Positions 40,019 to 62,115 of a DNA stretch of 64,000 nt are shown here, piece after piece. Where the stretch lies: positions 22,625 to 86,624 of the IMG/VR virus record IMGVR_UViG_3300026735_000021; one strand, 5' to 3'. The notes beneath the pieces are model-generated. The model was not told where the DNA came from. It worked only from the letters and a program-made list of their open reading frames with translations, and made no database searches. Positions within the stretch are counted from its first letter, which is position 1, and each line of letters opens with the position of its first letter. The translations under genes and the position numbers were made by a program. The stretch is from a virus. Taxonomy: Duplodnaviria; Caudoviricetes.

Positions 40019-43000
40019 TTATGGTTCTAAATCATCTGACGATGACGATTTAGCCATATTTACAGTATGTTGTGATACCTCTACATTAGATAAATCAACT
40101 GAAGATTTTTCTTTTGGTAAAGGTTTTTCTAGGTTAGCTTCTACTTCACGTTGTTGAATTGCCACTTTATCGAGAATATCTTGTTTAAGCAATGTTGTTT
40201 CATCTGTTGCTTCTCGCATTTTAAGTGGCGCAAATTGTTGACTACGTTCACCTTCAAGGAGACTTCTATTCTTTTCAGCCAGTGCAATCAAACGATCATA
40301 ACCACCACCATATGCAACTTGGTCAAGAGGTGATCCTTTTTCTTTTGCAATTTCTTTGATTGATTTAACGGCTGTTGTGCCATTTTCACTCATAAGATTA
40401 GCAATTGTATCAAGATATTCTTCGTTGAAATCAACGCCCAATTTTTCAGAAAGAACATGAGTCATTTCTGATTTGAATTGGCGTGCCGAAATATCTTTTT
40501 GTTTACCATCTGCTGATTTACCACCATATAAATTATTCAATGAACTTGACAATTCATCATTGATGATTTTAGCTTGACGAGGGTCATGCTTAATTTGAAG
40601 TGTACCTTGTGTGATTGGATATGTGATTTCAAGGGCAGCTTTCATATCGTCATCACGCAATGCCGCAACCAATTTTTGAGAGAATCCACCGGCTAAACCA
40701 GTATCATCAGATTTAACACCCGTTGCTTCTTGAATGGCTTGAGCATCACTAAGGTTTTTGATTGGACGTTCATTGAATTTTTTAACTTCAATTTTTCCAG
40801 ATTCAATTTGTTTAGACAATTTGTCACTATCTGATTCAACTTCATACCCAAAATAATCCATCAATTCAACAAATTTGCTAGGACTACCTTTTGCTTTGTT
40901 TTTAACCATTTGGGCAAATGATTCAACCATAGACTGTTTATCATCTAATCGAACATAATCCCCACCAAACCCATGATCACGGAAAGCCTTATGGCTATAA
41001 TTATTCAAATCGCGCAATGCTTTTTTAGTCAACATGCCTGTTGCGTCTTTAGCATTTGCATTTGCTTTAGCTTGATTTAAAAGATCTGTTACTTCAGTAG
41101 AACCTGTATCTTTCAAAGCTTTAGCTTCAGCTGAAGACAAATCCATTCCGCTTTGGAAATATAAATCATACTGTCCATCTTTATTCAAACCAGCACCAAA
41201 ATCAAGCATGTTAGCTTCGTGTCCAAACAATTCTTTCAATTGTTTATTAGCTTCAGGTGAATGTAATTTGATAAGACCCATTGTATCACCATCAAAGTCC
41301 ATATCATGTGATTTGTCCGCAATTGGATTAATTGAAATACCATGAACAGATTCATCATGTTTAACGGTAAAGGCACGAATCGCACCGTCACGAAGAACTG
41401 GATCACGCCAGCCCATGACAACGTCACCTTCTTTAACACCAAGTGAAGCCATCATAGCGGAGTTCATACCAGCATCACCTATATCCAAACGAGGGTCTAC
41501 AATAGCTACAGCTGTTGCTGAGTTATTCATACGTTTACCCATGATCTTATCACGAATGAAACTATGTTTACCATTAGGCCCACCATTCAATTGACGGTCA
41601 ATGATTTCTGATTGAATTTTGTCAAATGCTTTTTGAACGGACGCTTGAGCCGTATCACGATCACGAACGAATCTATCGTATGCATTTTTGACAGATGTAT
41701 TATCCATATCACCTGTGAAGTTTTTGATTTTTTCATCAAGCTTATTGAACTCACCAAGGTTATCATACATTGAAACATAATGACCAGTAAAATCATGAAC
41801 GCGTAAGCGATCATCTACCAATTCTGTATCTTTACGCAGATTTGCTGACAATACAGGAATTTGGAACATGCCATCACTATCAGTTTGAACAGATTTTCCA
41901 TTTTTAAATTTAATATCAAATGGAACTTTAAGGAATCCACCATGATCTTTGATTTGGTTCAAGAAATCAGCTGGACTTTTCTCTGGGTCATAATCAAATG
42001 AGTTACGAATTTCACCAGTTTGAGGTGTATATTCTGAAAGCAATGTACCATCAGCTTTCATATCCAAACCAGTTGTAATCAAGTATTCACGGAATGTAGA
42101 CCAAGGGCCAACATTATCTCCATAAATTTCTTCCATGATTTTATCTGCATTTTTAGATTGCAATGCCCATGCCAACTGTCCTGATGCTTTACGTCCTTTA
42201 CCTGAAGCAATATCCTCAGCTGAATAAGCATGCGTTTTATGATCAACAGTTAAGTCAGTAACAATCACATTCAAGCTACCTGTAGCGCCTTTTAAGGTTT
42301 TACCTTCAATAGGGTCATAAACAGATTTAGTTTCACCATCCATCAATTCAAGAACGACACCCGCGTTATCACGACTTAACATTGAATATGGGGCACCAAC
42401 AAGATCTAACCAGGGGTTAGCTTTCATGATAGCTACTTCATGTGTAAGCTTTTGGGCTTCAGCCTCAGCTGGATCCATGTTTCGATCAATAACAATACCT
42501 AGTGTACCTTTGTTACCCCCAAAGTCGGAAATCTTATCACCACGTTGCAGTTTACGTAAAGATCCAAACTCATTTAATTTAGTATCAAATGTTTCTTTTG
42601 ACACTTTATTATTTAAACTTGCTTCATAAATTTCATACAAATTAAGAAAATCTTTATTTGTATATGGCAATTTCATACCTAATGCGTCGGAAATTGTACG
42701 CTCCCTTGGATTAAATTGATTACGGAAATCTGAAATAGTTTCACCATCTGAAGCTGATTTGAAAACTTCGAGCGCATGTAATGCCGCTTCTTTATTTTCC
42801 TCATTAACACTAGCACCAGGAACATAGTTACGTTCAGCAAATTCAAGTGATGCGGCATAACTATCGTCAAATGTCCAACCACCAAAGTCCGTCAATGCTG
42901 TCCCAACATTTTCATCAATATGTAGTGCTGTCATTAATTGATTGGCCGCCATTTGATTACGGTCCCATGCATTATAATCATGATATTTAAAATAATCTAA

Positions 43001-46000
43001 TTTTTGCAATGCTGTTTTATCTGCAACCAATTCGCCTTTATCATTAAACATTCCTTGACTAGCTTTAACTGAGCCATCAGGTTTAACCTCAGCTCCGTCG
43101 GTCAAGTACCAGATCAACCCTTGAGTTTTACCTGTACCTGTCATAGTCAAGTCCGCAATGTTAGTCAAATCAGAATCAAGAATACGCATATTCTTTTCAC
43201 CCGCAGCTTTGAAATAGCTAAATGCCGCTTCATCTTCTTCATTGATACGATTTTTTTCAGCACGAGTTGCGGCGCTTGTTGTCGCATGTTCTCCATATTG
43301 ATTATCGAAACGAACACGATTAGATAATGTTTTAAGAATAGCATCCACACATTCTTTATCAAGATTACTATTAGCCACAAAATCAAGATCAATACGTTTA
43401 CCGTATACATCTCCATGGTACAACCCATTAAGGGTGCTTGAATCTAATCCTGTTGGAATATTATTCAATGTCATATTAAACGGACGAAGCATTTGTCCAC
43501 GAACGGCAGCTCTAACTTGGTCTTGTAATGATTCTTCGAAGCCTTTTACACGAAAACGATCCATTCGACTATCATTTGCATAATCACCATCGAAACTGAA
43601 ATATCCAGTATAACCCGGAACTAAACCGTAATTTTCACCCGATGCAAATTTTGTTTTGATGATTCCATTTTCGTCTGGAATAATAATTTGTCCAATTTCA
43701 CCAGAAATTGTTTCAGGTACAGCTGCCTTCTTAGTTTGACCTTTCGTCCGAACAGCCGTCCATTTGACGATACCGTTTTCATCAATAAGCACTTCAGGTT
43801 TTGCCCCATTAACGCCTTTAAAATCACCGTCAGTCAAAGTATCTTGAATTGCAGTTAATGCTCGATATGTCATTGATGTTTGTGGTACATCATCAATAGA
43901 TATAGCTGATCCTGGATCAAATTTAATCAAACGGTCTTTTACTGAGTTAGTCGCGAAATCATTACCATGAAGTTTATTTAAATCATAATTTGAAACTTTA
44001 AGAGCTGACATTGTCGCTTCACGAACATTTCGACGAGATGTTTCACGAACATTATCAATAATAAATCCTGGAGTAAATCCAGTTTCATATGAACCTACGG
44101 TTTCGTCCATAATCATGTCAAAAATTTCATTACCAAATTCAGTAATATCATCAGGTCCAACTTCTCGATTAGACAATACAGTTGCATCGTAAATTGACAA
44201 CAAATCAAAATCTGACTCTTTAATAGAAACAAGCATTTCAGCTTTCATTAATTCAGCATTGCCATCAGCATAAAGTTGAGTTAATTTCATAACATCATCA
44301 ATATAACCTTTTTGCAGTTCTTGAATGTTTTGATTAAGACTATACAAACTTGTCATTTCTTCACGGACACGAGCCATACCTTCTTTATCTTTAGTTACCG
44401 CAAATTCCCTAAATTCTGCTAACTTTTCATTAATTTCATTACGTTTGAAATCTGACGCCACAAGAGACCGAACGTCAGCAATTGATTCACGCAAGAAGTC
44501 TTCTGCCTCCGCGGGTGTATTAAACACAATGGAATCAAAACGATGTTTTACAGGTGAGACGTACAAGTGATCAGCACTATTTTCAGCCAATTCACGAACA
44601 ATAACACTATTGCTATCACTCTTAGACATGACAATCTTACCACCCTTACGACCCATAACGAAATCTAATTGTGATTTAATATCATTAACCGTAGGTTCTG
44701 CCCTACCACCTTGCTCTTTACGAAGATAGTAATATGAATTAAATGAATCATATACACGTCCAATATACTGAGGTTTTTCATCAAATACACGGAGATTTGT
44801 ATTTGGACGCATTTCTCCATTTGAAAGACCATTCAATGTCAGCTCAAGGATATTTTGTGATTTAGATTCTTTGATTGAAAAATCAATACCATTACTACGA
44901 AGATAACGTAAAATTTCTACAGACTTATACGCTGTTTCTCGAGATACTTTGATATCGCTAGAGATCAAACGTGACGCTAATACCGCATCAGGTCCTGACA
45001 AATATGCTCCTATTGCATGTTTTAATCCAGGCTTACGATCATCACCTTTACCTGAACCATCCCAGCCAATAAACACATCAGTAGAGTCAATATCAAATTC
45101 ATCTTCTGTTTCAGCATCAGTTTCAGCTTCAAGATTTACATCATCAAATGGATTTGTTGCGGTGTCAATGCTTATATCATTACCCGATTCAGCATAAGTG
45201 CCAATAGGCGCACCACTATTATCGATCAATTGAACTGATGTCAAACCATCAGTCAATAATTCACGAAGAGATCCATTACGGCTGTACATAAACGCTTTAC
45301 GATAAGTGTTATTATTAAATAATTCATTATCAGCAAAACGTGGATCCACAATTGATGTTGGATGCAAGTTGGCATTAACACGAACATCATATTCTTGTTT
45401 AAATTTATTATTTTGATTAACAATCCACTCAGTATTATTCAAATTATCAGAAACAGAGGAAAGACTAACCCCTTTAGTTTCTTCAATCATTGAAGCTAAT
45501 TGTTTCAAATGTGATGGACGAAGACCTGTTGTTGAAAAATCAACACCCAAATCAGCTCGAAGCTTACGGTAATCATTAAGATTAAGTTTCGTTACACCAT
45601 CCGGCAAATTTGAACTCATAAGCATCATCCATTGTAACATATTGAACTCAGCCGTATTTTGTTCTAATTGTGTTTTCATACTTTCTTTACCATCCGAATA
45701 CACACCAGCCTCTGTTCCATCACTGTTAAGAATAGATACACCACTAGCGGAACCATCATCAATCAATTCATGAAGACTTTTATCTCGAGTATAAAGAAAA
45801 GGCTTATTGTTATTAGGATTCGAAATCACCGTGTTATCAATAAATGTTGGATCAATTATTGATGTAGGATGCATATTACGATTAACACGATCCGCATATA
45901 TTGCTTTAAATGCATTATTTTGATTAACAATCCAATCCCTATTATTGAAATTAGTTTTAAAGTTGTCCAATTCAGTTGTCACACCAGCCACACCACCAAT

Positions 46001-46207
46001 AAGTGAAACCAGTTGTTTCAAATGAGACGGATGAATACCAGTTGTTGAAAAATCAACACCCCAATCTGATCGAACTCTACGATAGTCCGGAACTTTTAAA
46101 CGACGTTGTTCTGGTAGTTGACTACCAATCAACATCATCCATTGGAATGCATTAAACTCAGATTGATTCTGAGCTAAAGCTGTTTTCTTCTGTACAGTAT
46201 CTGCCAT
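40019..46207 (-). CDS. Putative single-chain two-barrel RNA polymerase (beta-like and beta'-like cores fused)
   Basis: GWTFDDS (~beta GYNFEDS), RKLQRGDKISDFGGNKG (~beta GDKxxGRHGNKG), MGKRMNNSATAV (~beta' LGKRVDYSGRSV), RDPVLRDGAIRAF (~RAPTLHRLGIQAF), DMDFDGD (~NADFDGD), in the expected order. Confidence 0.85.
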   Translation of the reverse strand: MADTVQKKTALAQNQSEFNAFQWMMLIGSQLPEQRRLKVPDYRRVRSDWGVDFSTTGIHPSHLKQLVSLIGGVAGVTTELDNFKTNFNNRDWIVNQNNAFKAIYADRVNRNMHPTSIIDPTFIDNTVISNPNNNKPFLYTRDKSLHELIDDGSASGVSILNSDGTEAGVYSDGKESMKTQLEQNTAEFNMLQWMMLMSSNLPDGVTKLNLNDYRKLRADLGVDFSTTGLRPSHLKQLASMIEETKGVSLSSVSDNLNNTEWIVNQNNKFKQEYDVRVNANLHPTSIVDPRFADNELFNNNTYRKAFMYSRNGSLRELLTDGLTSVQLIDNSGAPIGTYAESGNDISIDTATNPFDDVNLEAETDAETEDEFDIDSTDVFIGWDGSGKGDDRKPGLKHAIGAYLSGPDAVLASRLISSDIKVSRETAYKSVEILRYLRSNGIDFSIKESKSQNILELTLNGLSNGEMRPNTNLRVFDEKPQYIGRVYDSFNSYYYLRKEQGGRAEPTVNDIKSQLDFVMGRKGGKIVMSKSDSNSVIVRELAENSADHLYVSPVKHRFDSIVFNTPAEAEDFLRESIADVRSLVASDFKRNEINEKLAEFREFAVTKDKEGMARVREEMTSLYSLNQNIQELQKGYIDDVMKLTQLYADGNAELMKAEMLVSIKESDFDLLSIYDATVLSNREVGPDDITEFGNEIFDMIMDETVGSYETGFTPGFIIDNVRETSRRNVREATMSALKVSNYDLNKLHGNDFATNSVKDRLIKFDPGSAISIDDVPQTSMTYRALTAIQDTLTDGDFKGVNGAKPEVLIDENGIVKWTAVRTKGQTKKAAVPETISGEIGQIIIPDENGIIKTKFASGENYGLVPGYTGYFSFDGDYANDSRMDRFRVKGFEESLQDQVRAAVRGQMLRPFNMTLNNIPTGLDSSTLNGLYHGDVYGKRIDLDFVANSNLDKECVDAILKTLSNRVRFDNQYGEHATTSAATRAEKNRINEEDEAAFSYFKAAGEKNMRILDSDLTNIADLTMTGTGKTQGLIWYLTDGAEVKPDGSVKASQGMFNDKGELVADKTALQKLDYFKYHDYNAWDRNQMAANQLMTALHIDENVGTALTDFGGWTFDDSYAASLEFAERNYVPGASVNEENKEAALHALEVFKSASDGETISDFRNQFNPRERTISDALGMKLPYTNKDFLNLYEIYEASLNNKVSKETFDTKLNEFGSLRKLQRGDKISDFGGNKGTLGIVIDRNMDPAEAEAQKLTHEVAIMKANPWLDLVGAPYSMLSRDNAGVVLELMDGETKSVYDPIEGKTLKGATGSLNVIVTDLTVDHKTHAYSAEDIASGKGRKASGQLAWALQSKNADKIMEEIYGDNVGPWSTFREYLITTGLDMKADGTLLSEYTPQTGEIRNSFDYDPEKSPADFLNQIKDHGGFLKVPFDIKFKNGKSVQTDSDGMFQIPVLSANLRKDTELVDDRLRVHDFTGHYVSMYDNLGEFNKLDEKIKNFTGDMDNTSVKNAYDRFVRDRDTAQASVQKAFDKIQSEIIDRQLNGGPNGKHSFIRDKIMGKRMNNSATAVAIVDPRLDIGDAGMNSAMMASLGVKEGDVVMGWRDPVLRDGAIRAFTVKHDESVHGISINPIADKSHDMDFDGDTMGLIKLHSPEANKQLKELFGHEANMLDFGAGLNKDGQYDLYFQSGMDLSSAEAKALKDTGSTEVTDLLNQAKANANAKDATGMLTKKALRDLNNYSHKAFRDHGFGGDYVRLDDKQSMVESFAQMVKNKAKGSPSKFVELMDYFGYEVESDSDKLSKQIESGKIEVKKFNERPIKNLSDAQAIQEATGVKSDDTGLAGGFSQKLVAALRDDDMKAALEITYPITQGTLQIKHDPRQAKIINDELSSSLNNLYGGKSADGKQKDISARQFKSEMTHVLSEKLGVDFNEEYLDTIANLMSENGTTAVKSIKEIAKEKGSPLDQVAYGGGYDRLIALAEKNRSLLEGERSQQFAPLKMREATDETTLLKQDILDKVAIQQREVEANLEKPLPKEKSSVDLSNVEVSQHTVNMAKSSSSDDLEP

Positions 46208-46306: not shown

Positions 46307-46336
46307 CAAAAAAAACAGAAAGCAGTTGCTTTCTGT
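46307..46336 (-). terminator. Intrinsic terminator after virD4
   Basis: CAGAAAGCA/TGCTTTCTG stem followed by T run on - strand. Confidence 0.8.
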
Positions 46337-46342
46337 AAAAAA

Positions 46343-47668
46343 TTAATCAATTTGAATTTTTCTATTATAGGTTGATGCTACGGCTGCGTCGAATCGACCG
46401 CCAGCAATATCAGACCATGAATCTAACGAAACAAGCCATTTAACAAAGGCATCTGTCACTTCATATTTAAGTGTACGATCCGTATTTTCATCCATTCCAT
46501 TAATTTTAGAATTTGCATCACGAGACGCAGCATCCAATTCATCAATTTCATCAGAATTAAGACCAGTTAAACTTCTAATAAAAACTTCATTTTGATCGCT
46601 ATAAAGTTCACCAGTATCTTTGTTATATCGAAATTTAGTATCATTTTTAAAGTATTGCTCTGTATCTTGATATGCTTCACTCAACACACGATACAATTCA
46701 CCCGATAATTGGCCGGCTTCATTAACAAACATTGATTTAGACAACAGTCCTTTTGCATATATTTTAATTTCATTTTTAAGAACATTCTGTTTCAATTTAT
46801 CAACTTCATCTAATAATTCATTATTAGGAACTGAACTTTCAACAAGATCTTGACCCCTACGCTCAGCTAGTTCCTCGGCCGCTACTTGTGCTTGAATATA
46901 TTCATCCTCTGAATTGAAACCAGAGTCTCGCCAAACTTCTTGATTATGATCAGATTTATACAAGAAATCATTAATGGCATTCATTAAATCATCACTTAAT
47001 ACATCCGGGTCTAATTGATCCATATGATGTTCTGTATAATCATAAACTGACATATATGTTGTTCTTACTGTGTCAACCATTTTTGCTTGTTCCAATCGTT
47101 TATCCAACATAGCATAGAAGTTTGGTTGATTTTGTCTCACATCAAAATCTTTAGCCAATGACAAAGTAGGAACTGTTTGTAATGAATACTTCTTACGAGG
47201 GTCACGAATTGTATTTCCAAGCAAAGCATAACTCATTGCCAATACTGTTTCATTCCTATTCCACACAGGTGAAACCCCTGCTCTAAGAACAACACTATTC
47301 CGAGGTGGAATGAACAGCAAATCATTGAATGATATAACTGGGCGTTCTTTTGTTGACATTGTATAAGATATACGTCCCTCATTTTTATTTAAGATACGTT
47401 CATTATCACGAGTGATTGTTTTAGATTCAATCAATGATTCATGAGTTTGTCCTGACAACTTAACCAATGTATCTAACATTGAGTCATCTGTTGATTTCAA
47501 GAAAACAATAGAGGCATTACCTTGAATAATTTTATCAACACTATCCCCGTAAACGTCCCGTAATTGTTGTAATGTTTGTAATATAAGTGTAAATTGTTGA
47601 TCTTGACCCAGCCCAATACTTAACATTGTTTGTAATGCTGGGATACCATGACCCTCATTTTGTAAGTT
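46343..47668 (-). CDS. virD4: VirD4/TraG coupling protein, exon 4
   Basis: Begins NLQNEGHGIPALQTMLSIGLGQDQQFTLILQTLQQL, continuing the Walker B MLDELG of exon 3; ORF-track prefix MLRTSETTNKKKT is intron sequence. Confidence 0.88.
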   Translation of the reverse strand, partial: NLQNEGHGIPALQTMLSIGLGQDQQFTLILQTLQQLRDVYGDSVDKIIQGNASIVFLKSTDDSMLDTLVKLSGQTHESLIESKTITRDNERILNKNEGRISYTMSTKERPVISFNDLLFIPPRNSVVLRAGVSPVWNRNETVLAMSYALLGNTIRDPRKKYSLQTVPTLSLAKDFDVRQNQPNFYAMLDKRLEQAKMVDTVRTTYMSVYDYTEHHMDQLDPDVLSDDLMNAINDFLYKSDHNQEVWRDSGFNSEDEYIQAQVAAEELAERRGQDLVESSVPNNELLDEVDKLKQNVLKNEIKIYAKGLLSKSMFVNEAGQLSGELYRVLSEAYQDTEQYFKNDTKFRYNKDTGELYSDQNEVFIRSLTGLNSDEIDELDAASRDANSKINGMDENTDRTLKYEVTDAFVKWLVSLDSWSDIAGGRFDAAVASTYNRKIQID

Positions 47669-49625
47669 CGTTTTTTTTTTATTTGTCGTTTCACTTGTTC
47701 GTAACACAAGCTCTATGTTAATTCATAGCACCCTCATTACAAGGCGTTAACCAGACTATATGTCAAGGTCTACTACTTTCGTAGCGATTCCCCCATCTAT
47801 TTTTCGCGCACGTCATATACTTACGTCGCTAACGGAGACGCCATCTCCTAGTCGTTAGAGGTTATACCTAAAACATTAGGCATAAGTCCTACCCGAACAT
47901 GCTCTTTTTACTAATTAAAGTACATCAACTTAGCAACACTATTAATGTTTTTTTATTTCAGCATATTGACATCTTACTTATTTCTTTCAGGTTTCCCAGC
48001 ATTCACGCTCATTGTTACCAATCACGTTGTAGCAAAGTAAGCTCTTAAAGCACTTCCGCGGGTTTAATTGATGTAAAGGTACGCACACATTACATATACG
48101 CAGGGCACTTACTTCAATTAAGAGTTTCTTATTATTTATTCAAAAATTTTATTTCCAATCATGTCTAATGGGGCATCCATCACTAATCCAACGTTTGGCA
48201 TCATTGAGATTACAATCCCATAATACAACATAATTCAAATTATTGGCACGAGCCATAGTTCGTTTGGTCACATCAGACCCCGTCCAAATATCAACATATC
48301 GATCATATAATGGTGTATGTTTTGATTTTAAATAATCAACTTTAGTCAAATCTTCATCAGATTCAGGATCAAACCATTTCCCACCATGTAACCATGTAGC
48401 ATTTAATTCAATAAATAAATCTAAAGATTTAATATAAAAATCGCAATTAAATGGGTATCGTTTATCTAAACGATGTTGTGTCATCACATCATCTTGCCCA
48501 AAATAATTAACAAGCATTTTACCTAATAATTGTTCAGGTTTTGATGTATTCATTGTGCCATTCATCTTTTTAGTATTCTGTATCTTCATAATAGTCTCTT
48601 CTGAACCAAGACAACTTCGTCCGATACTACTACTAGCCCAATGTTCTGATCCATATCTAATCAAACATGTTGATTTTCGTTTATTCATATATTCTTCTGA
48701 ATAAAACACACGCTTAGCATCATTACTCGTTTGCCATAATTGTGAACCATATCTAATCATATTTGTTGCTTTAGTTTTAGCTACAACTTCATCCGCTGAT
48801 AATAATTGTTTCAATCGAACTCTAGCTTCAGCTGATTGCCAATAATAAGGTACACCATATCGTTTCATTGATGTTTCTTTATATTTACGTTGAACATCTG
48901 CTGACAACATGCGTTCACTTCTCAGTTGTCGTTCTTCTGGCGTATTAAATATATGATTTAAATATTCTTTGCCTTCAGTGCTTTGCGTCCAATGATTTGC
49001 TCCATGATTTTTTAAAGATGTAGCTCTATATTTGGCTCGAGCGTCATCAGATTTAATTCCATCTGACATTTTTTTCCGCACATCGTCAGAACCTAATATT
49101 TCAACGAGTTTTTCTTTACCTATATCACTCTCTGCCCACGTTTTAGACCCATATTTTTCAATATTTGTATTCATCGCTTTAGCTCGAGATTTTTTAGACC
49201 AAGGTCCCTCGTTATTTTCTTTCAACATGCGAGCATTATCACTACCAGCCCATGACTCACTACCATATTTGTCATTATTTGTTTTACGTCGTTTTGCTAA
49301 TACTTCATCCGACTTAATGCGTTCACTTTGTTGTTTACGACGTTCAGGTGTCCAATAATTAGCTACATTTTCTTTTGCACAAATTTTGCAATAACCACCC
49401 TGTAAATGATATCCAGGTGTTATTTCAAAATCACCATGAATAGAACAAATAACAATAACTTTAGTAGCATTATTAATATAGTCTACTTTGGAATAATCAT
49501 AATTATATTTTTCAATTATTCCTTTATCTTTGAGTTTTTGAATAAATAAGTTAAGTTTACTTAATTTTTGTTCAGTCATAATATGTATTTCCTTTTCGGT
49601 TTATACTTATATTATAACATAATCA
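47669..49625 (-). mobile_element. Group I intron (intron 3 of virD4) with homing endonuclease in the P1 loop
   Basis: P-like GAATGCTGGGAAACC, R TCTAACGACTAG (47847..47859), S GACATATAGTCT (47753..47764), terminal G at 47669; IGS GTAAGTGCCCTG (48101..48112) pairs with both exons; 5' boundary uncertain by 1 nt. Confidence 0.88.
48149..49579 (-). CDS. Intron-encoded homing endonuclease, PD-(D/E)xK/Vsr-like (EDxHD-type)
   Basis: N-terminal CSIHG...CKIC module, ~40-aa repeats (KT...KYGxxxW), C-terminal CDFYIKSLDLFIELN...HGGKWFD. Confidence 0.8.
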   Translation of the reverse strand: MTEQKLSKLNLFIQKLKDKGIIEKYNYDYSKVDYINNATKVIVICSIHGDFEITPGYHLQGGYCKICAKENVANYWTPERRKQQSERIKSDEVLAKRRKTNNDKYGSESWAGSDNARMLKENNEGPWSKKSRAKAMNTNIEKYGSKTWAESDIGKEKLVEILGSDDVRKKMSDGIKSDDARAKYRATSLKNHGANHWTQSTEGKEYLNHIFNTPEERQLRSERMLSADVQRKYKETSMKRYGVPYYWQSAEARVRLKQLLSADEVVAKTKATNMIRYGSQLWQTSNDAKRVFYSEEYMNKRKSTCLIRYGSEHWASSSIGRSCLGSEETIMKIQNTKKMNGTMNTSKPEQLLGKMLVNYFGQDDVMTQHRLDKRYPFNCDFYIKSLDLFIELNATWLHGGKWFDPESDEDLTKVDYLKSKHTPLYDRYVDIWTGSDVTKRTMARANNLNYVVLWDCNLNDAKRWISDGCPIRHDWK

Positions 49626-49626
49626 A

Positions 49627-50457
49627 CCCCAATTCATCAAGCATATACTTAGTTTTGTAAAGAGGCTTTTGTGACTCTTTTACAATATAAGATAAGTCGA
49701 CATTTGAATCGAATGTTTGTTTGATAAGAATCAATATCAATTTAGCATATGTCATCAAATGTGGTGGTGTAATCATAAATACAATTTTTGGTTTTTCTGT
49801 GTATTTTACAGTGCTTTGGCTAAACGCTGGCACTTTAACAATCTTTTCAACAGAACCACCCTCACGAATGTTACGATATTTACGATTAACCATTGTTTGT
49901 TGATAAATGTAGTTTCCAGAACGCGTTTTATGCATTTCACGTAAAACTCCGTCCTTGATAATTTTATTACCCAATACAGGATCTTTGACATAAGATTTAC
50001 CATCAAGGTCGGTTTTATATGTGAGTTCCAATTCAAAATAGAAAGTTTTTATCAACAGTTCTGTTTCTGGATTTCGAATTTCCAGTTTAACATAGGCTTT
50101 TTTACTTTTAGATGTATCAAATTTACCATCAAAGTAATATCTAGCCCAACCTGTTCTATCAATAAGTTGACTGTGATCAAATTGATCGGATTTAGGTCTA
50201 ACGTCCGTCAACTCACCATCACGGTCATAAATCTTACCATCAACTTCTACGTAGCCGTCATTTAACAAACGTCTACTAAAGTTTTTATCTTCATATGCTG
50301 ACCATACAGCTTGCGTTCCAAACATTTTATATCGAGACTCATACTCAGGTGCAAACCTAACTCCTAATCGACGAGGAAATGATAATCCTGCCGCATCGAA
50401 ATTTTGAGACGGTTTACCTGATGTAAGCGTTGATATTGTTGGATCTGTGAAAAAACT
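49627..50457 (-). CDS. virD4: VirD4/TraG coupling protein, exon 3
   Basis: Begins SFFTDPTISTLTSG, ends Walker B KYMLDELG; contains IVFMITPPH; ORF-track prefix MSDKWHQNVTYRN is intron domain VI. Confidence 0.85.
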
Positions 50458-51114
50458 ATTACGATAGGTAACATTTTGATGCCATTTATCTGACAAACTT
50501 TTATATGTTTCATGTCGTTTTCATGACAGCTCCACGTTTTCCCCCGTACCACACCGTGCATGCGACTTTCACCGCACACGGCGTTCCCTCAATATGTATA
50601 AATTAAAAATTATACATATTGACTTGTGACCATCACTTCTTCGTCCATTACAGACGCTATCATTATTTCGATCACTACTTTTCAGCACAAATTCATCTGC
50701 TTATTGTTCTTCGTCAGACTACTGTTCGCTTTGTACCTTTCCACGTTCCAATTGATTTATCGTACATAATATACTTAGGTGCTTTCTATACTTGAGCATT
50801 ACATCATACACCTTTAATGTATCAAGGTTTTTCTACGCAATGACAATACTAAACCTCATAATATTCAAGTTTTAAATCGAAAGTTCGTCCAACTATTGTT
50901 ATACTCACCATATATATTGACGCCCGCCCTATCTAATTTTCATTATTCAGGCGACTTTACCGAGCTTCGAACATATAATGTTTCCATTTAATGCACGTCG
51001 GAGATTAGCGTAAACGCTTCAGATCGTTACATCTTCATTTCGTTTATCAATCAATTAGTTCTCCATGAGAATATTCTCATGTGTAAACACTTTTCATGTT
51101 CAAACGTGTCGCAC
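50458..51114 (-). mobile_element. ORF-less group II intron (intron 2 of virD4), 657 nt
   Basis: Starts GTGCG after GCA ATG; domain V ACGCCGTGTGCGGTGAAAGTCGCATGCACGGTGT; ends TACCTATCGTAAT (AY); removal gives in-frame TAM|SFF. Confidence 0.92.
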
Positions 51115-51840
51115 CATTGCAGTTAATGCAATTCCATATACTGACGCTATGGTTTTATCTGAACCAGCCATTGCACGTAATGCGCTGTCAGCATTATTTA
51201 CTAGATTTCTCATACTATTCTTAGGCAACTTAGCTGTTGCATCAAAGAATAATGTCAAGAAGTCTTTTTCTTCTACTACTTCGTCAGCATCAATTTTGAT
51301 TTTTGACTCATCCGTAGATTTTTTCGCAGATAATAATACAAACAATTGATATGCATTATATAACGTTACTTTACCCCAAAGATCGCCGATACGTTGGTTG
51401 AGCACTTTAGGATCAACTCCTGCCTGCTCAGCTTCACGTCTCATTTGTTTTTCTTCTTCGAGGTAGAAATCGATCAAGCCAAACGCCGAACGCTTAAACG
51501 CGTTGTTCGCGGCATTTGGCCACATTGGATCATCCGCTCCTTCTTTGGGGAAGAAAATGTCACCAATGTTTTCAACGTAACTTGCTGCTTTTGTGAAGTC
51601 CCCTTCACGTGCGGCATCAGCCGCATAACCCAATGGATTGTAAATGTCAGTTTTAGATGCATTAATCAAATTAAACTGAACAACTTCATATCCACGTACG
51701 GTTGCAGGTATAAAAAATTTAACCAATAACTCCCCTTTAGGGTCGTTAATTATGATATTGTCTTGTCGTTTCTGACGAGTCCACATATCAATTGTAGGTT
51801 CAATTACTGTTTGGCCCTTCCCAGCTCGAGTTATGGCTAA
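51115..51840 (-). CDS. virD4: VirD4/TraG coupling protein, exon 2
   Basis: LAITRAGKGQT (Walker A), IINDPKGEL, FNL......YNPL, DPMW. Confidence 0.9.
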
Positions 51841-51929
51841 CTTAAGGCTGGGAACGAGTTCGTCGCGATTCTTAACTCCGAACCCTATATATACTTTCAT
51901 ATATAAAGACTATGTGTTAATCAAAAATG

Positions 51930-52940
51930 TTAATATGTGTTTTCTTTATGATCTTTTAGAAAACATTCAGTGTTGCAATCATAATCATAGAACCATACAT
52001 TAAAATCTCTCAATTTTGGTTCATATATTTTTTTATTAGAAATTTGTCCATCCCAGAAAACTAAATAATTTAAATTATTTGATTTAGCTACATTTTTCTT
52101 TTCAATATCAGAATATCTCCAATTGTTTGCAGCTTTTTCCAATGATCCACCTTTTGACACCCAATTATCATAAAACTCTAAATCATTAGGGTCATTACTA
52201 TCAAACCATCGATCATTATGGCTATAAAAGCCATTCATTTCAATGAATAAATCATTAGATTTAATATAAAAATCACAATCATAAGGATATCTATCATCTA
52301 ATGGATATCGTCCATAATGTATTTTCACATCATCTATTCCAAATTTGGAAATCAACTTTTTATATACATATAATTCAAATTGAGATAGTAGTTTTTTACT
52401 TAACAAATTATCATAATTATTAGATTCATTGCTTAATTCCAATTCAGTCATAAACAATTCATGTTTTGTTTTCAATGATTTATTTAACGCCTCAGGATTA
52501 GCCAAGCCAACACCACCATATTTTTCGGTCTGAGTTTCTCTAATCTTAAACAATCGTGCTTCTTCAGATAATTTTTTAAACTCAGTTTCACCTAATAGTT
52601 TTTTAAGTGTTGGAATTGCTCGTTTACCTAAAAACAAACAATTAAACAACTCAAAGCCATCCCATCTAGCATCATTCATTAAATGATCATGCATATACTC
52701 AGAAATAATAGCTCGTTGCTCCTCTTTGCTGTAATGCTCATTGATATATTTAATTTGAGTGTCAGGTATATCCTCAGGTTTGATTTCATTTAAACCATAT
52801 TGAACTCTTTTCTTATTTAAACCTCTCAACATGATTTTATGATCTTTTTGAAGATTTGACCATCCCATTAAATATTTATGACTAATATCATTAATTTCGT
52901 TCAAATCTAATGCTTCTAATTTATGATTTACAGTTACCAT
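51930..52940 (-). CDS. Intron-encoded homing endonuclease, PD-(D/E)xK/Vsr-like
   Basis: RYPYDCDFYIKSNDLFIEMNG..SH..RWFD, homologous to the C-terminus of 48149..49579. Confidence 0.8.
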   Translation of the reverse strand: MVTVNHKLEALDLNEINDISHKYLMGWSNLQKDHKIMLRGLNKKRVQYGLNEIKPEDIPDTQIKYINEHYSKEEQRAIISEYMHDHLMNDARWDGFELFNCLFLGKRAIPTLKKLLGETEFKKLSEEARLFKIRETQTEKYGGVGLANPEALNKSLKTKHELFMTELELSNESNNYDNLLSKKLLSQFELYVYKKLISKFGIDDVKIHYGRYPLDDRYPYDCDFYIKSNDLFIEMNGFYSHNDRWFDSNDPNDLEFYDNWVSKGGSLEKAANNWRYSDIEKKNVAKSNNLNYLVFWDGQISNKKIYEPKLRDFNVWFYDYDCNTECFLKDHKENTY

Positions 52941-52973
52941 TTATATTTACCTCGGTTTCGTTCTTATATATTA

Positions 52974-53002
52974 ATTATAACACCCAAACGAGCTCGAGTC
53001 AA
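52974..53002 (-). promoter_or_regulatory. Internal sigma70-type promoter for the intron 1 endonuclease
   Basis: TTGACT-17-TATAAT with TG extension. Confidence 0.75.
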
Positions 53003-53364
53003 GCATTTTAGTTGAATATCGATGCTTTTTTTTTCATTTTTGATCCTGGATTTTTCTTCTTTATAAGTCAGGTCATAACATATAAAGCTTTACATTAAGG
53101 ACTAAAGTCCGCCTTCGCAAAAGGCTAGTCGTTGAACGTCTCCCTTATTATAAAATTATAACTTAGGGCTTTCGCTGCTAAACATCCATTTATATGACGT
53201 TTTAGGATTTAACCCTGCGTCATCTCAATATTTTTTTCTACTTTCGTTACGTAACTTTCGTTCAGCTTATCGTTTCCAATTACTGTTTCCGTATATTGAG
53301 CTTTAGGAATTCCTAGCAATAAACACAGAGTACGTGCATGTCACCATACACGCAGTGCTAACCA

Positions 53365-54315
53365 CACCATTGTATTAATAGCATCTGTTTCAACCAAGTA
53401 GGCACCTGATGGGCGCTGTACTTCGTAATCGGGAATTTCCCAATCTTGATTGATCAAATCAGCTACGCCATCGTATTTTTGTTTTTCCCTATTAGGTCTT
53501 TTTCCTTTTTTATCAGCTTGATTATAAGGAATTTTTGACACATCAAATGGTTCTCTAATTTCTTTAGCATCATCAGGGATACCACTGGCTGTCATTAAAT
53601 CTTGCCCAAATTGTTCATCAATAATTGGCATCATTTTAGAGACAGGATTACCATCTAGGTCTAAGATAGCTTCACCCTCATAAACTCTATCAACAAATTT
53701 TTCACCAGTATCTTCATCAATAAATTCCATATTTTTAGATTCTGAATACCGTTGAGTAAACGGAACCTTTTTAAGACCTTTATTTGACAAATTAATATGG
53801 CTAATCATCATTGTAGGATTTACGCTTGAATGAGCGCCCACATCAGGGAAATAATCAAATGTACGAATAGCTTCATCTGGTAACATGATATACTGGTCAT
53901 TCATATGTGGATTAATATCAGTAGTGTCATTCATTGAATTTTCACTACGCCAATTTGCCATCATTCTATTGTATAAGATTCCCCATACCATAAAGCCTAT
54001 AAGGACACTTGAGCCCCATGCTTTCCATGATGATAATCCATTATTAATATTGAATGCAACTCCAGCTACACTATTACCTCGTGACAATTGAAGCACAATA
54101 TCAGCAATTCCCATTAAAATCGAAATTAAAAATACGGATCCAATTGTAACTATGATTGACACTATTATAGATAATATTCTACGTGCTTTTGGACTCGTTT
54201 TCTGGCCTTGTTTACCCCGTTCCAATGACTGTGAATTATACACATCACGGTTTGCCGGTGTATCAGTAAACGATCGACCTTTAACGATGTCCCAATTTGA
54301 CTTTTTATTTTTCAA
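53365..54315 (-). CDS. virD4: VirD4/TraG coupling protein, exon 1 (two N-terminal TM helices)
   Basis: Two TM segments, ends YLVETDAINTMV which joins LAITRAGKG of exon 2; TTG start with RBS GAGG. Confidence 0.85.
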
Positions 54316-54417
54316 TAAAAAATAACCTCTCTTTCACTTTCTATTCAATTGTCAAAGATCAAAACCTTATTGGTCTGTATTAATTATACCACAATAGCCT
54401 GTTGTTTACCAATATTT

Positions 54418-59748: not shown

Positions 59749-62115
59749 TCAATCAAATTCGCGAAAATCTGAATTTTCCATAATTGACTGAGATGCATCC
59801 ATTGCAATTTGATCAGCATCAAGAGACGCTTGTATTTCTTTGAGTAGGTCTCTACGATCATCTAATCTGATAGTTTTATAGTTTCTATTATCCATAAAGT
59901 CGCCAACATCAGGAGCAATCACTTTGATTTCATGTTTATCCTCAGCAACAGCCGCCGCCCCTTTCATATCATCAATATCAATACTGGCTCTATGTGTAAC
60001 ACTTAATGGTTGATTTGTTTTATTCAAATAATGATTAGCATCTTGTAGAACAACATTGCGCAAACGATATGCCTCTACAAAATTTTGAGCATTGGCGGGA
60101 CTAATACTATTATCAATTCTTCCATAAAAATCAATGCCTAAATGATGTAGGTCCAAAGCTTTTACCGAGTTGAAATGATCTTGGTCAATTCCATCGGCCC
60201 TAGTCTTTGGAGCAAATGGAGCTACAAATACACCATTACCATACTGCATTTGATCATGATATTCCATAACATCCATATTTTCAAATCCAGACGATACAGC
60301 AGTCCATTCACGAGCTGTGGCGACACCTTTAACAAAACAATCAAAGGTGTAATTTCTCAATTCTTTTGTATAACTTTTCTTATCATTAACAATTTCATCA
60401 ATAATAACTGAACGATACGAATCATCATAAACTCTTGATCCAGATAATACACCATATTCAGCATATACACGAGAATCAATCAAACTAATATTTTCAACAA
60501 TATCAATATCTGACGGCAAATTCAATTTAGACAACAAATTATCATCGTCAAAATCATAAATCAATTGTTCTTTTTTATGAATGGCATTGAATTGGTCTGT
60601 CAATTGTTCATAACGTGGAGTCATTTCTTCAACATTTTTCAAATCAAATCGATGATTAAACTTGAAAAAATAACGATATTTATCTACGAGCTTCATATTG
60701 TAATCTAATTCTTCTTCATAAAATCTACGCATTACCAATGCGTCTAAAGCTACTTGACCCATATCGTATTGTTGATCAAATTGATCTAACGCTTGTTTGT
60801 ATTCTATTGTCTCTTTCATATGAGTATCACGTCGATTGTTGAAGCCTCTAATTCGAAGTTCAAAACCAACGGCATCGAACGAATCAGGCTCTTTTTTGGA
60901 CAGCATTGACTTCAACTCATTATCTGAGCTACTCTGAACGTCAATCATTGGCGTTTGTATTTCTAAATCAGACTCAGATACTTCATTAGATAAAAATGAG
61001 TACAAACCATTTACAGACCGTTCTATTATTAATTTTTTACCATTATCAATCAATTTTTGTCGTTCAGTTAAACTTAGACCGTCATCAGATCGACGTTGAT
61101 TGCTGTAATCCAAAATTGATCTCAATGTTTTAGAATACCCACTCTTATCCGGCTGTTCTTTGAATAATCGAGATACAATAGACTCGGCTAATTCATTACT
61201 CCGAGACATTTTTTCATTATTTGTACTATATCTCCACAAATTCTTATTTTTAGGCAAAGATGCAACTAATAATTGTAATGTTGTATTATGACTAATTTCA
61301 TCATAGGCATAATCTTTAACAAATGATACAACATTACGTCTATCTAAATCCACTTGATGATGAAAAGACTTCATGGCTTTCATATCAATTAACGCATGAT
61401 TAATTCCAAACCGTAATGATGATTTCTCAGTTTCATGTATTTTCCCCCGATCATACCCATCATATACGGTTCTATGCGTTGAAAATTCTTTATCTACTAA
61501 CGCCAAATGGCAATGAACATGACTTGTATCTACTTGAATGACTCCTACCCATTCAGGAGCCTTATATCCACCGTCTCGTGTCATTTTCGTAATTCCTGAT
61601 GTAATTGCCTGCCTCAGTTTCAACTGGTCTAATTGGCCCCTATATGAGCCTTTGCCAGCGAACTGAAATGACTTGTCAACAACACCTGTTTCATGCAAAT
61701 ATTCATCTGTAAAGCTGAGAACGATCTTTTGAACAGTATGCCCCTCATCGAATGCTTTTTGTATTTCTTTACTGGTATCGACCAACTGTTTACCACTTAA
61801 TGAAATATGTTTACGACCAAAACCTCGTCCACTTAAATATTCTAACTCATTAAATTCCTGTTTAAGTTCTTTAACTGAGCCTCTAGGCCCAAGTAATTTC
61901 ATCTTTTCAGTTGCATCGGCTCTAGCCATATACCGTGTTGCATAAAAAACAAGCCCACTGTCGTTCACTTCAACAGGGGCTAATGTTTCGGTCGCATCTT
62001 CACGGGACATATAATCAATGACAAACTTACCAGGAGTACTACCCCTAGTTCCACGACTGCCACCAGCCGTATTTGTAAATTCATTTTTAATTACAATAGC
62101 CTTTTTCAAGTCCAT
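59749..62115 (-). CDS. MobL-family relaxase
   Basis: VIDYMSREDATE (motif I Tyr), QKIVLSFT.EYL (motif II), GVIQVDTSHVHCHLAL (HUH motif III). Confidence 0.88.
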   Translation of the reverse strand: MDLKKAIVIKNEFTNTAGGSRGTRGSTPGKFVIDYMSREDATETLAPVEVNDSGLVFYATRYMARADATEKMKLLGPRGSVKELKQEFNELEYLSGRGFGRKHISLSGKQLVDTSKEIQKAFDEGHTVQKIVLSFTDEYLHETGVVDKSFQFAGKGSYRGQLDQLKLRQAITSGITKMTRDGGYKAPEWVGVIQVDTSHVHCHLALVDKEFSTHRTVYDGYDRGKIHETEKSSLRFGINHALIDMKAMKSFHHQVDLDRRNVVSFVKDYAYDEISHNTTLQLLVASLPKNKNLWRYSTNNEKMSRSNELAESIVSRLFKEQPDKSGYSKTLRSILDYSNQRRSDDGLSLTERQKLIDNGKKLIIERSVNGLYSFLSNEVSESDLEIQTPMIDVQSSSDNELKSMLSKKEPDSFDAVGFELRIRGFNNRRDTHMKETIEYKQALDQFDQQYDMGQVALDALVMRRFYEEELDYNMKLVDKYRYFFKFNHRFDLKNVEEMTPRYEQLTDQFNAIHKKEQLIYDFDDDNLLSKLNLPSDIDIVENISLIDSRVYAEYGVLSGSRVYDDSYRSVIIDEIVNDKKSYTKELRNYTFDCFVKGVATAREWTAVSSGFENMDVMEYHDQMQYGNGVFVAPFAPKTRADGIDQDHFNSVKALDLHHLGIDFYGRIDNSISPANAQNFVEAYRLRNVVLQDANHYLNKTNQPLSVTHRASIDIDDMKGAAAVAEDKHEIKVIAPDVGDFMDNRNYKTIRLDDRRDLLKEIQASLDADQIAMDASQSIMENSDFREFD

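What the first reader, a model, noticed from the sequence alone, without database searches (positions are those of the whole stretch)
46343..54315. virD4 is one ~1277-aa gene split by three self-splicing introns of two classes
The four track ORFs join as NTMV|LAITRAGKG, TAM|SFF and MLDELG|NLQ (exons of 317, 242, 277 and 441 codons by my arithmetic). The order is group I, group II, group I, with insertions directly before Walker A and directly after Walker B. Group II introns in conjugation genes are established (Ll.LtrB in a relaxase); mixed group I/II occupation of one coupling-protein gene is unusual. Conjugation would require three splicing events, a possible environmental control point. 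Automated annotation would call these pseudogene fragments.
Basis: partly seen in the sequence, partly recalled or inferred. Interest (0 to 1): 0.85.

Follow-up and report, generated by a model that had tools for sequence, protein, structure and literature searches.

The report
Coupling-protein gene split by three introns
One 1277-codon DNA-transfer motor gene (VirD4/TraG type) on a large mobile element is interrupted by two phage-type group I introns and one group II intron; this is a new example of a known kind, but both group I introns sit one base away from where the textbook splice-site rule puts them.

Summary
On the minus strand, four exons (54315-53365, 51840-51115, 50457-49627, 47668-46343; 317+242+277+441 codons) join into one 1277-codon frame. 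It aligns end to end (63% identity) with uninterrupted 1284-1285-aa homologs, across exactly NTMV|LAITRAGKG, TAM|SFF and MLDELG|NLQ.

- **Intron 2** (657 nt, no ORF) is a textbook group II intron by Rfam.
- **Introns 1 and 3** (1524 and 1958 nt) are IA2-like, phage-type group I introns. Each carries a homing-endonuclease gene. Rfam's model is weak or silent on them, but covariation, P7, omega-G and homology to introns in Staphylococcus and Enterococcus phage genes support the call.

The gene family is an intron and intein hot spot, with at least 11 insertion sites in relatives.

Precedents lower the novelty. pAW63 virD4 holds an ORF-less group II intron. [quoted passage not shown] This scan also found a group I intron in a coupling-protein gene in another genome.

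One point is unexplained. In both group I introns the last exon base is G (paired with C), and the conserved U.G wobble is made by the first intron base. A cultured phage's tail-tube intron shows the same layout.

No RNA data were available. That the element conjugates is not shown.

The parts
54383..54412 (-). Promoter-like -35 (TTGGTA) and extended -10 (TGgTATAAT) upstream of exon 1
   Evidence: Read by eye, downstream of a hairpin plus T-run that ends the preceding 783-aa gene. Not tested.
53365..54315 (-). Exon 1 (317 codons): TTG start with AGAGG ribosome-binding site 10 nt upstream, hydrophobic N-terminal segments, ends ...NTMV
   Evidence: The start fits the homolog consensus M-x7-NW.
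51841..53364 (-). Intron 1, group I (IA2-like), 1524 nt. Guide sequence GCACUG 53358-53353; P7 strands GACUA 53130-53126 and UAGUC 51912-51908; last base G 51841; endonuclease gene in the P8 region
   Evidence: RF00028 31.6 bits, E 2e-6 on a 451-nt search, below the gathering score of 50. 70-74% identity to intervening sequences in Staphylococcus and Enterococcus phages. Covariation on alignment A3.
51930..52940 (-). Intron-1 ORF, 336 aa, putative homing endonuclease with its own promoter-like TTGACT/TATAAT and ribosome-binding site
   Evidence: No Pfam or PHROG hit. Its C-terminal 120 aa are 43% identical to the intron-3 ORF (E 2e-25).
51115..51840 (-). Exon 2 (242 codons): LAITRAGKG (Walker A) ... 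TAM
   Evidence: Pfam T4SS-DNA_transf, E 3.9e-9. 84% identity to P0001.
50458..51114 (-). Intron 2, ORF-less group II intron, 657 nt. 5' GUGCG; D1-D4 50913-51063; EBS1 CAUUGC 50842-50837, complementary to the last 6 exon bases GCAAUG; D5 (CGC triad) and D6 50458-50586; 3' end AU
   Evidence: RF02004 106.8 bits and RF00029 57.8 bits, both above gathering. Sequence. EBS1-IBS1 pairing.
49627..50457 (-). Exon 3 (277 codons): SFFTDP ... YMLDELG (Walker B)
47669..49626 (-). Intron 3, group I (IA2-like), 1958 nt. Endonuclease gene in the P1 loop; guide sequence GCCCUG 48106-48101; P10 partner UAAGU 48111-48107; P7 strands GACUA 47853-47849 and UAGUC 47758-47754; last base G 47669
   Evidence: No Rfam hit. 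Homologous to two identical ORF-less introns in L006 and to the phiEF17H ribonucleotide-reductase intron. Compensatory changes against L006 read.
48149..49579 (-). Intron-3 ORF, 476 aa, homing endonuclease (DUF7487 repeats plus a C-terminal Vsr/EDxHD-like domain)
   Evidence: Pfam DUF7487. PHROG homing and HNH endonuclease families. 36% identity, E 6e-50, to the ORF inside a group II intron of L037.
46343..47668 (-). Exon 4 (441 codons plus stop): NLQNEGHGIP ... TraG-D_C domain and a long C-terminal extension
   Evidence: Pfam TraG-D_C, E 1.2e-10. 60% identity to P0001.
46307..46336 (-). Terminator-like hairpin plus T-run directly after the stop codon
   Evidence: Read by eye. Not tested.

Best explanation
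This is one transcription unit (promoter-like site, ribosome-binding site, TTG start, terminator) that encodes a 1277-aa VirD4/TraG-family coupling ATPase. Its pre-mRNA of about 8 kb carries three self-splicing introns.

- Intron 1 is an IA2-like group I intron with a homing-endonuclease gene in P8. It sits in the strand before the P-loop.
- Intron 2 is an ORF-less group II intron.
- Intron 3 is an IA2-like group I intron with its endonuclease gene in the P1 loop. It sits two codons after Walker B.

Removing all three restores the frame and the conserved motifs.

Shown: exon colinearity, the junctions, the group II identity, a conserved and covarying RNA core for the intron-1 family, and endonuclease homology.

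Inferred: that the introns splice in vivo, that the group I introns arrived by endonuclease-driven homing or reverse splicing from the phage intron pool, and that intron 2 descends from an endonuclease-bearing group II intron at the same site.

The frame-restoring 5' splice sites of both group I introns follow a G paired with C. The usual U.G wobble is formed by intron base +1. I infer that this sub-lineage cleaves one position 5' of the wobble.
For: Exons:
- They are colinear with uninterrupted homologs, with gap-free junctions.
- The joined frame has 1277 codons and 63% identity end to end.

Group II intron:
- Rfam scores of 106.8 and 57.8 bits are above gathering.
- It has GUGCG, a CGC triad in D5, an AU 3' end, and a 6-bp EBS1-IBS1 pairing.
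- A group II intron occupies the same TAM|SFF site in L037.

Intron 1:
- RF00028 gives E 2e-6 with the GUUCAACGACUA J6/7-P7 motif.
- On a 7-sequence alignment, 58 pairs are 95% paired, and 35 pairs show compensatory change against 4-10 in slid controls. No shuffle out of 500 reached these values.
- P7 covaries across the 1-kb ORF: GACUA/UAGUC here, GAUCA/UGAUC in L012.

Intron 3:
- The same P7 motif pair and P7.1/P7.2 hairpins are present.
- Many compensatory changes separate it from the ORF-less L006 copies.
- It shares 80% identity over 93 nt with an intron that splits the phiEF17H ribonucleotide reductase. That intron's junction I could restore canonically.

Both group I introns end in G, and both form P10 with the 3' exon.

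A cultured phage (PMBT8) carries the same G|U...G layout in its tail-tube gene. Compared with the intron-less phage PT1-1, the insertion is exactly GAG|[U...G]|CCU. This layout is therefore compatible with a working gene.
Against:
- RF00028 is below its gathering score for intron 1. It finds nothing for intron 3, nor for the ORF-less relatives.
- The last exon base is G, not U, in both group I introns. Cleavage after the U of the U.G pair would add one U, giving stops at codon 330 or codon 836.
- No group II maturase or reverse transcriptase of intron type lies in the 86.6-kb record. The only RVT_1 hit is a separate 345-aa frame.
Confidence: 0.8

Rival explanations
1. The introns are real, but the two group I introns splice canonically, after the U of the U.G pair. 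The mRNA then carries one extra U at each site and the gene is dead, or is expressed only at a trace level.
For: P1 pairing puts the only U.G wobble at intron base +1 in both introns. An extra U gives a stop at codon 330 (intron 1) or an immediate UAA (intron 3). An earlier scan note (e1-5797145) makes the same point.
Against: The same offset occurs in at least 7 introns from two lineages, at different sites, in otherwise intact genes. These include the tail-tube gene of the cultured phage PMBT8. The exons show no other damage. The base after omega-G matches the conserved codon in all three informative cases: N841, L839 and A326.
Confidence: 0.1
2. Both splice sites of the group I introns lie one base further 3'. 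The exon then ends in the wobble U, and the intron ends in G plus one base. The product is in frame, with one changed residue at intron 3 (Asn to Tyr) and none at intron 1.
For: With this shift, P1 and P10 become textbook-adjacent. The 3' exon bases UAGCC and ACUUA pair with the 5 bases directly 5' of the wobble G.
Against: The intron would end in U or A instead of the universal G (established knowledge of group I chemistry). The G would be penultimate in 7 of 7 cases, with no known role. N841 is at least 90% conserved.
Confidence: 0.05
3. There is no splicing. The gene is permanently split by endonuclease cassettes into four polypeptides, or it is a pseudogene.
For: Each piece has some ATG/GTG/TTG upstream in frame. 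Annotation pipelines call such pieces separate proteins (for example P0019).
Against: The intervening DNA folds into conserved, covarying ribozyme cores. The junctions are exact to the codon. The breaks fall inside the P-loop strand and the Walker B strand. There is one promoter and one terminator for the whole unit.
Confidence: 0.04

Closest known systems
B.th.I2, the ORF-less group II intron in the VirD4 homolog of Bacillus thuringiensis conjugative plasmid pAW63 (PMC1196294)
   Same: An ORF-less group II intron interrupts a Gram-positive coupling-protein gene on a large mobile element. The two halves are annotated as separate CDSs.
   Different: pAW63 has one intron (935 bp) in that gene and no group I introns. 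A related RT-bearing intron lies elsewhere on that plasmid, and none was found here. Homology between the two introns was not tested.
[quoted passage not shown]
   Same: One gene is invaded by both intron classes. The endonucleases are built from CapR/DUF723/DUF4379-like repeats plus an EDxHD/Vsr-like nuclease domain. Here the intron-3 endonuclease is 36% identical to the ORF inside a group II intron of relative L037.
   Different: The host gene and the element differ. In this window the group II intron has lost, or never had, its ORF.
Phage IA2 group I introns: Twort orf142 (three in one gene), SEP1 tail-tube, phiEF17H ribonucleotide reductase and PMBT8 tail-tube introns
   Same: They share a core (J6/7-P7 AACGACUA, P7.1/P7.2, GNRA-capped P5 hairpins), with 70-80% identity over 90-235 nt. 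They also share multiple introns per gene and peripheral endonuclease ORFs.
   Different: The SEP1 and phiEF17H introns have a canonical U(-1).G. Introns 1 and 3 here, and PMBT8, have G(-1)-C with U(+1).G. That Twort I2 is canonical is my recollection only.
Ll.LtrB group II intron in the relaxase gene ltrB of pRS01 (PMC7293003)
   Same: A self-splicing intron sits in an essential DNA-transfer gene, so splicing gates transfer.
   Different: Ll.LtrB is a single intron with its own RT/maturase, in the relaxase gene, and was tested experimentally. Here the MobL relaxase gene (59749-62115) is uninterrupted.
[quoted passage not shown]
   Same: Many introns of both classes lie in one conserved gene, with endonuclease or maturase ORFs.
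   Different: Those are organellar and long-established. This is a bacterial mobile element.

Membership tests
Group II intron (intron 2) | Domain 5/6 and domain 1-4 covariance models above the curated threshold | tested here: met
   RF00029 57.8 bits (gathering 40). RF02004 106.8 bits (gathering 34.5)..
Group II intron (intron 2) | 5' GUGYG, 3' AY, bulged A in D6, catalytic triad in D5, EBS1-IBS1 pairing | tested here: met
   GUGCG at 51114. The intron ends ...CGUAAU at 50458. CGC triad is present. CAUUGC (50842-50837) pairs with exon GCAAUG.. A standard EBS2 was not found.
Group II intron (intron 2) | Lariat splicing in vitro or in vivo | not testable with these tools
   No RNA data.
Group I intron (intron 1) | Rfam RF00028 at the gathering score | tested here: not met
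   31.6 bits against 50. E 2e-6 only when 451 nt are searched. No hit in the whole-window search. The model is cut by the 1-kb ORF.
Group I intron (intron 1) | Conserved P4-P6 domain, P7 and IA-type P7.1/P7.2 supported by covariation | tested here: met
   35 of 58 pairs have compensatory change and 95% are paired. Slid controls give 37-42% paired. P7 double compensation in L012.
Group I intron (introns 1 and 3) | Terminal G (omega-G) before the 3' exon | tested here: met
   G at 51841 and at 47669 at the only frame-restoring junctions. G is also found in all 9 related introns examined.
Group I intron (introns 1 and 3) | 5' exon ends in U, paired with G of the guide sequence | tested here: not met
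   The last exon base is G paired with C. The U.G is formed by intron base +1. P1 reads UGGUG|U with GCACUG, and UGGGG|U with GCCCUG.
Group I intron (intron 3) | Rfam RF00028 | tested here: not met
   No hit at E up to 10 on 47640-48160, nor on the ORF-less relative in L006. The canonical relative L003 is missed as well, so the model is insensitive to this subgroup.
Group I intron (intron 3) | Homology to, and shared helices with, accepted phage group I introns | tested here: met
   Compensatory changes against L006 in P1, P5a, P5c, P6, P7.1, P7.2 and P9 hairpins were read. The count was by hand, not by shuffle test.
Type IV coupling protein (VirD4/TraG/TraD) | T4SS-DNA_transf and TraG-D_C domains with Walker A and Walker B | tested here: met
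   PF02534 on exons 2 and 4, and PF12696 on exon 4. Homologs also carry PF10412. TRAGKG and MLDE motifs are present.
Type IV coupling protein (VirD4/TraG/TraD) | Works with a relaxase and a VirB4-containing mating channel | tested here: inconclusive
   A MobL relaxase lies 5 kb upstream. No PF12846 hit in this 86.6-kb fragment or in 5 complete relatives. Only one VirB4 family was tried.
EDxHD/Vsr-like homing endonucleases with CapR/DUF723-like repeats (PMC12350094) | Repeat domains (DUF7487/DUF723/DUF4379) plus a C-terminal nuclease domain of about 100 aa | tested here: inconclusive
   The intron-3 ORF hits DUF7487 and PHROG homing-endonuclease families. The intron-1 ORF shares only the C-terminal domain. 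There is no PDB sequence match. The fold and the catalytic residues were not tested.

The most novel reading that the evidence does not exclude
A sub-lineage of phage-type IA2 group I introns cleaves its 5' splice site one nucleotide upstream of the conserved U.G wobble. It leaves a G-C pair at the cleavage site, with the wobble U as the first intron base. Members include both introns here, at least four in related elements, and the tail-tube intron of the cultured Staphylococcus phage PMBT8. If so, the near-universal rule that the exon ends in the wobble U is not obligatory, and P10 reuses the wobble G.
Probability: 0.45. Interest if true: 0.7.

Novelty: new member of a known kind. Interest (0 to 1): 0.5.

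Why it matters
- **Annotation.** The gene would be called four fragments plus two hypothetical genes. The same family in a sequenced Paenibacillus genome is already annotated as two proteins.
- **Intron biology.** The coupling-protein gene of these 120-250-kb elements is a dense landing pad. At least 11 sites, crowded around Walker A and Walker B, hold group I introns, group II introns and inteins. One endonuclease family is shared across intron classes, as recently seen in jumbo phages.
- **A test system for the splice-site rule.** The repeated one-base offset between the frame-restoring junction and the U.G wobble appears in a cultured phage, and could be tested there.
- **Possible gating of transfer.** If the element does transfer by this ATPase, expression needs three RNA-splicing events. 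That could gate transfer, as shown for Ll.LtrB, but nothing here tests it.

Tried and rejected
- **Rfam on the group I introns.** Rfam at gathering found only the group II intron, both on the window and on relatives L003 and L006. Permissive Rfam searches on intron 3, the L006 intron and the L003 intron gave only chance hits. I conclude that RF00028 is insensitive to this IA2-like subgroup, not that these are not group I introns.
- **A PreQ1 riboswitch hit** inside exon 3 (24 bits against 39) was dismissed as chance.
- **Near-identity searches** in the phage and plasmid collections found only group II domain 5. A tblastn of exon 4 against phages found nothing.
- **Programmed +1 frameshifting** as a rescue of the extra U. 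It fits intron 3 (GGG-UAA-C) but not intron 1 or the relatives, so I rejected it.
- **Other frame-preserving 3' sites after another G.** Each gives a stop, a deletion or no P10, so I rejected them.
- **Three-sequence RNAalifold for the intron-3 family**. phiEF17H aligned poorly in the 3' half, so I used it only for the window-versus-L006 comparison.
- **An automatic MAFFT/alifold run on ORF-deleted intron-1 relatives** mis-aligned the 3' parts and was replaced by alignment A3.
- **Literature.** Three look-ups for the two Twort intron papers found nothing held.
- **Endonuclease structure.** A PDB sequence search with the intron-3 endonuclease found nothing.


Full report
**Observation**

The feature is on the minus strand. 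Four stop-to-stop frames carry Pfam T4SS-DNA_transf and TraG-D_C matches. A database search with the last piece found hundreds of uninterrupted proteins of 1230-1290 aa. They carry PF10412, PF02534 and PF12696, and some are named type IV secretory system conjugative DNA transfer protein in Paenibacillus, Streptomyces and other genera.

BLASTP of the four pieces against six of these proteins is strictly colinear. Piece 2 ends at P0001 residue 562, piece 3 covers 563-840, and piece 4 starts at 841. The homologs read NTMVLAITRAGKG, TAMSFF and MLDELGNLQ across the three breaks.

Reading the DNA fixes the exons at 54315-53365, 51840-51115, 50457-49627 and 47668-46343. That is 317, 242, 277 and 441 codons. 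Joined in a script, they give one 1277-codon frame, 63% identical end to end to P0001 and P0002.

The unit has a promoter-like site, a ribosome-binding site with a TTG start that fits the family N-terminus, and a terminator-like hairpin after the stop.

**Intron 2**

Rfam finds a group II D1-D4 model (RF02004, 106.8 bits) and the D5/D6 model (RF00029, 57.8 bits), both well above gathering.

- The intron runs from 51114 to 50458 (657 nt).
- It starts GUGCG and ends AU.
- It has a CGC triad in D5.
- Its loop sequence CAUUGC is complementary to the last six exon bases.
- It has no ORF.

In relative L037 a group II intron sits at the identical TAM|SFF site and starts with the same GUGCGAC. That intron is about 5.5 kb and carries a 612-aa DUF7487 protein and a NADAR gene.

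The only reverse-transcriptase-like frame in the 86.6-kb record is a separate 345-aa frame outside the window.

**Intron 1 (53364-51841)**

Rfam RF00028 reaches only 31.6 bits (gathering 50), and only when the 5' 451 nt are searched alone. That alignment covers P1 to P7 with the GUUCAACGACUA motif.

The 5' 235 nt are 70-74% identical to unannotated gaps inside split genes of Staphylococcus and Enterococcus phages. Examples are the Romulus portal gene and 6ec-like phages.

I aligned seven members of this family (A3). RNAalifold predicts P2, P4, P5 with its extensions, P6, P7.1 and P7.2.

- 95% of cells are paired, against 37-42% when partners are slid.
- 35 of 58 pairs show compensatory change, against 4-10 in slid controls.
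- No shuffle out of 500 reached the observed values.

The two strands of P7 lie on either side of the 1-kb ORF (GACUA at 53130-53126, UAGUC at 51912-51908). They covary with the ORF-less relative in L012 (GAUCA/UGAUC). The intron ends in G.

**Intron 3 (49626-47669)**

Rfam gives nothing, but it also misses the ORF-less relatives. The endonuclease gene starts 47 nt into the intron, so the whole core lies after it. A homing endonuclease gene inside P1 has a precedent in a B. cereus recA intron (PMC2504315).

The core carries the same AACGACUAG...AUAUAGUC pair, with P7.1/P7.2 hairpins between the two strands.

It is homologous to a 449-nt ORF-less intron that is present twice in L006, in identical copies. 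It is also homologous to the intron that splits the phiEF17H ribonucleotide reductase. For that phage intron I could restore a canonical junction, AVAP|NGSIAYVNE.

Between the window copy and L006, I read compensatory changes in:

- P1 (GGGU/GCCC against GAGU/GCUC)
- P5a (CUUACUU/AAGUAAG against CCUGUAA/UUACAGG)
- P5c
- P6 (UAUGCC/GGUAUA against UAUCCG/CGGAUA)
- P7.1 (GGAGA/UCUCC against GGGGA/UCCCC)
- P7.2 (ACGU/ACGU against ACCG/CGGU)
- a P9 hairpin

These were read. The count was by hand.

**Endonucleases**

The 476-aa intron-3 ORF matches Pfam DUF7487 and PHROG homing-endonuclease families. The 336-aa intron-1 ORF has no family hit, but it shares the C-terminal 120 aa at 43% identity.

The intron-3 ORF is 36% identical (E 6e-50) to the ORF inside the L037 group II intron. 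Other intron ORFs in L037 hit DUF723, DUF4379 and DUF7487. [quoted passage not shown]

**A hot-spot gene**

I mapped P0001 onto 30 related loci and read the junctions. Most relatives are uninterrupted. Others carry intervening sequences at the following sites, in P0001 numbering:

| Site | Locus | Type |
|---|---|---|
| I323\|T324 | L038 | short, 333 nt, type not determined |
| R325\|A326 | L006 | group I |
| G329\|Q330 | L012 | group I |
| E334\|P335 | L038 | group I |
| W427/P428 | Paenibacillus amylolyticus L011, L014, L038 | group II (RT-bearing in L011 and L014) |
| A430\|A431 | L037 | ORF plus group II |
| M562\|S563 | L037 | group II |
| P828\|L829 | L003, L037 | group I |
| E838\|L839 | L006 | group I |
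| near N891 | L006 | intein |

The 1600-aa forms also carry a LAGLIDADG domain. L037 alone holds at least three group II introns and one group I intron. L038 has a 33-nt mini-exon that encodes TRAGKGQTVIE. Mixed occupancy is therefore typical of this family, not peculiar to this window.

**The splice-site anomaly**

Only one junction per intron both restores the frame and leaves a terminal G.

- At that junction the last exon base is G. It pairs with C of the guide sequence.
- The only U.G wobble is made by intron base +1. Intron 1 reads UGGUG|U with GCACUG. Intron 3 reads UGGGG|U with GCCCUG.
- The 3' exon pairs with the bases up to and including that G. For intron 1 this is UUAGCC with GGUUAG. 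For intron 3 it is ACUUA with UAAGU.

The same layout holds in L006 (both copies), L012 and the second L038 intron. The L003/L037 introns, the first L038 intron, phiEF17H and the SEP1 tail-tube intron are canonical.

Cleavage after the wobble U would add one base and give early stops. Shifting both sites by +1 would remove the terminal G and change conserved N841.

The decisive comparison is between the cultured phage PMBT8 and its intron-less relative PT1-1. The tail-tube gene differs by exactly GAG|[U...G]|CCU, with P1 reading CGGAG|U paired with GCUCUG. No parse of that insertion gives both U(-1) and a terminal G, yet the phage is viable.

I therefore favour real in-frame splicing one base 5' of the wobble, but I cannot show it. 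So the scan has seen group I introns in coupling-protein genes before, on other DNA.

**Context and function**

The window is part of an 86.6-kb IMG/VR record. It encodes SecA/SecY, Clp-type ATPases, helicases, a ligase, a D5-type primase and a 2062-aa two-barrel RNA polymerase directly downstream of this gene. A MobL relaxase lies upstream.

I found no terminase in the record, no HK97-type capsid in five complete relatives (150-250 kb, four with terminal repeats), and no VirB4-type ATPase in either. Only single Pfam families were tried for each. Membership in the coupling-protein family is well supported. That the element conjugates, and that splicing controls conjugation, remains inference.

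**Novelty**

- An ORF-less group II intron in a virD4 homolog is published for pAW63 (PMC1196294).
- Both intron classes in one phage gene, with related endonucleases, are published (PMC12350094).
- No held paper links group I introns with virD4.

I rate this a new member of a known kind, with an unexplained and testable departure from the group I 5' splice-site rule.

Noticed in passing
window 40019-46207 (-); L011, L012, L013, L014: The coupling-protein gene is always followed directly by a giant (1750-2060 aa) single-chain two-barrel RNA polymerase gene. It is preceded by a protein of about 790 aa and a Clp-type ATPase. This order holds in metagenomic relatives and in a Paenibacillus amylolyticus genome.
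   Followed up: partly
L006 6343-6791 and 8367-8815: Two identical 449-nt ORF-less group I introns lie in one gene, at TR|AGKG and LDE|LGN. Both target sites read CGAG|C. This looks like recent intragenic transposition guided by the 4-base guide sequence. The same gene also holds an in-frame intein of about 1 kb near 8980-10000.
   Followed up: partly
L037 9949-20100: One coupling-protein gene holds at least three group II introns and one group I intron. The group II intron at TAM|SFF is about 5.5 kb and carries a DUF7487 endonuclease-like ORF, a NADAR gene and several small reverse-strand ORFs (cargo). At PNA|ANN, a promoter-like site and a 310-aa DUF723/DUF4379 ORF precede the group II core. 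The 5' end of that intron was not resolved.
   Followed up: partly
L038 10497-10529: A 33-nt mini-exon encoding TRAGKGQTVIE (the whole P-loop) sits between two introns.
   Followed up: partly
L009 3236-4218 with L045 1-1257 (Staphylococcus phage PMBT8), compared with L010 (PT1-1): The tail-tube gene intron of a cultured phage has G as the last exon base and U.G at intron +1. The intron-less allele in PT1-1 fixes the junction at GAG|CCU. PMBT8 has four copies of this intron type in the region, with very short exons between some of them.
   Followed up: partly
L011 2003-8460 (Paenibacillus amylolyticus, GCA_023516485.1): In a sequenced isolate the homolog is annotated as two proteins (428 and 819 aa). 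They are separated by a group II intron with a 624-aa reverse transcriptase, inserted in phase 1 of the Pro428 codon.
   Followed up: partly
relatives G001-G005 (records behind L003, L038, L004, L006, L015): Complete 119-252-kb records, four of them with terminal repeats, are filed as viruses. None gave a hit to a VirB4-type ATPase family or to the HK97 capsid family. What kind of element this is stays open.
   Followed up: partly
window 7508-8389 (-) and 11850-13622 (+): There are further endonuclease-like ORFs. One is a 293-aa GIY-YIG protein. The other is a 590-aa protein with a PHROG HNH-endonuclease match. They may be free-standing homing endonucleases, or may mark further introns that Rfam does not see.
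   Followed up: no
own record G000:C1:4039-4530, outside the window: This is the only RVT_1 match in the record, a 345-aa frame. It is not next to the ORF-less group II intron.
   Followed up: no
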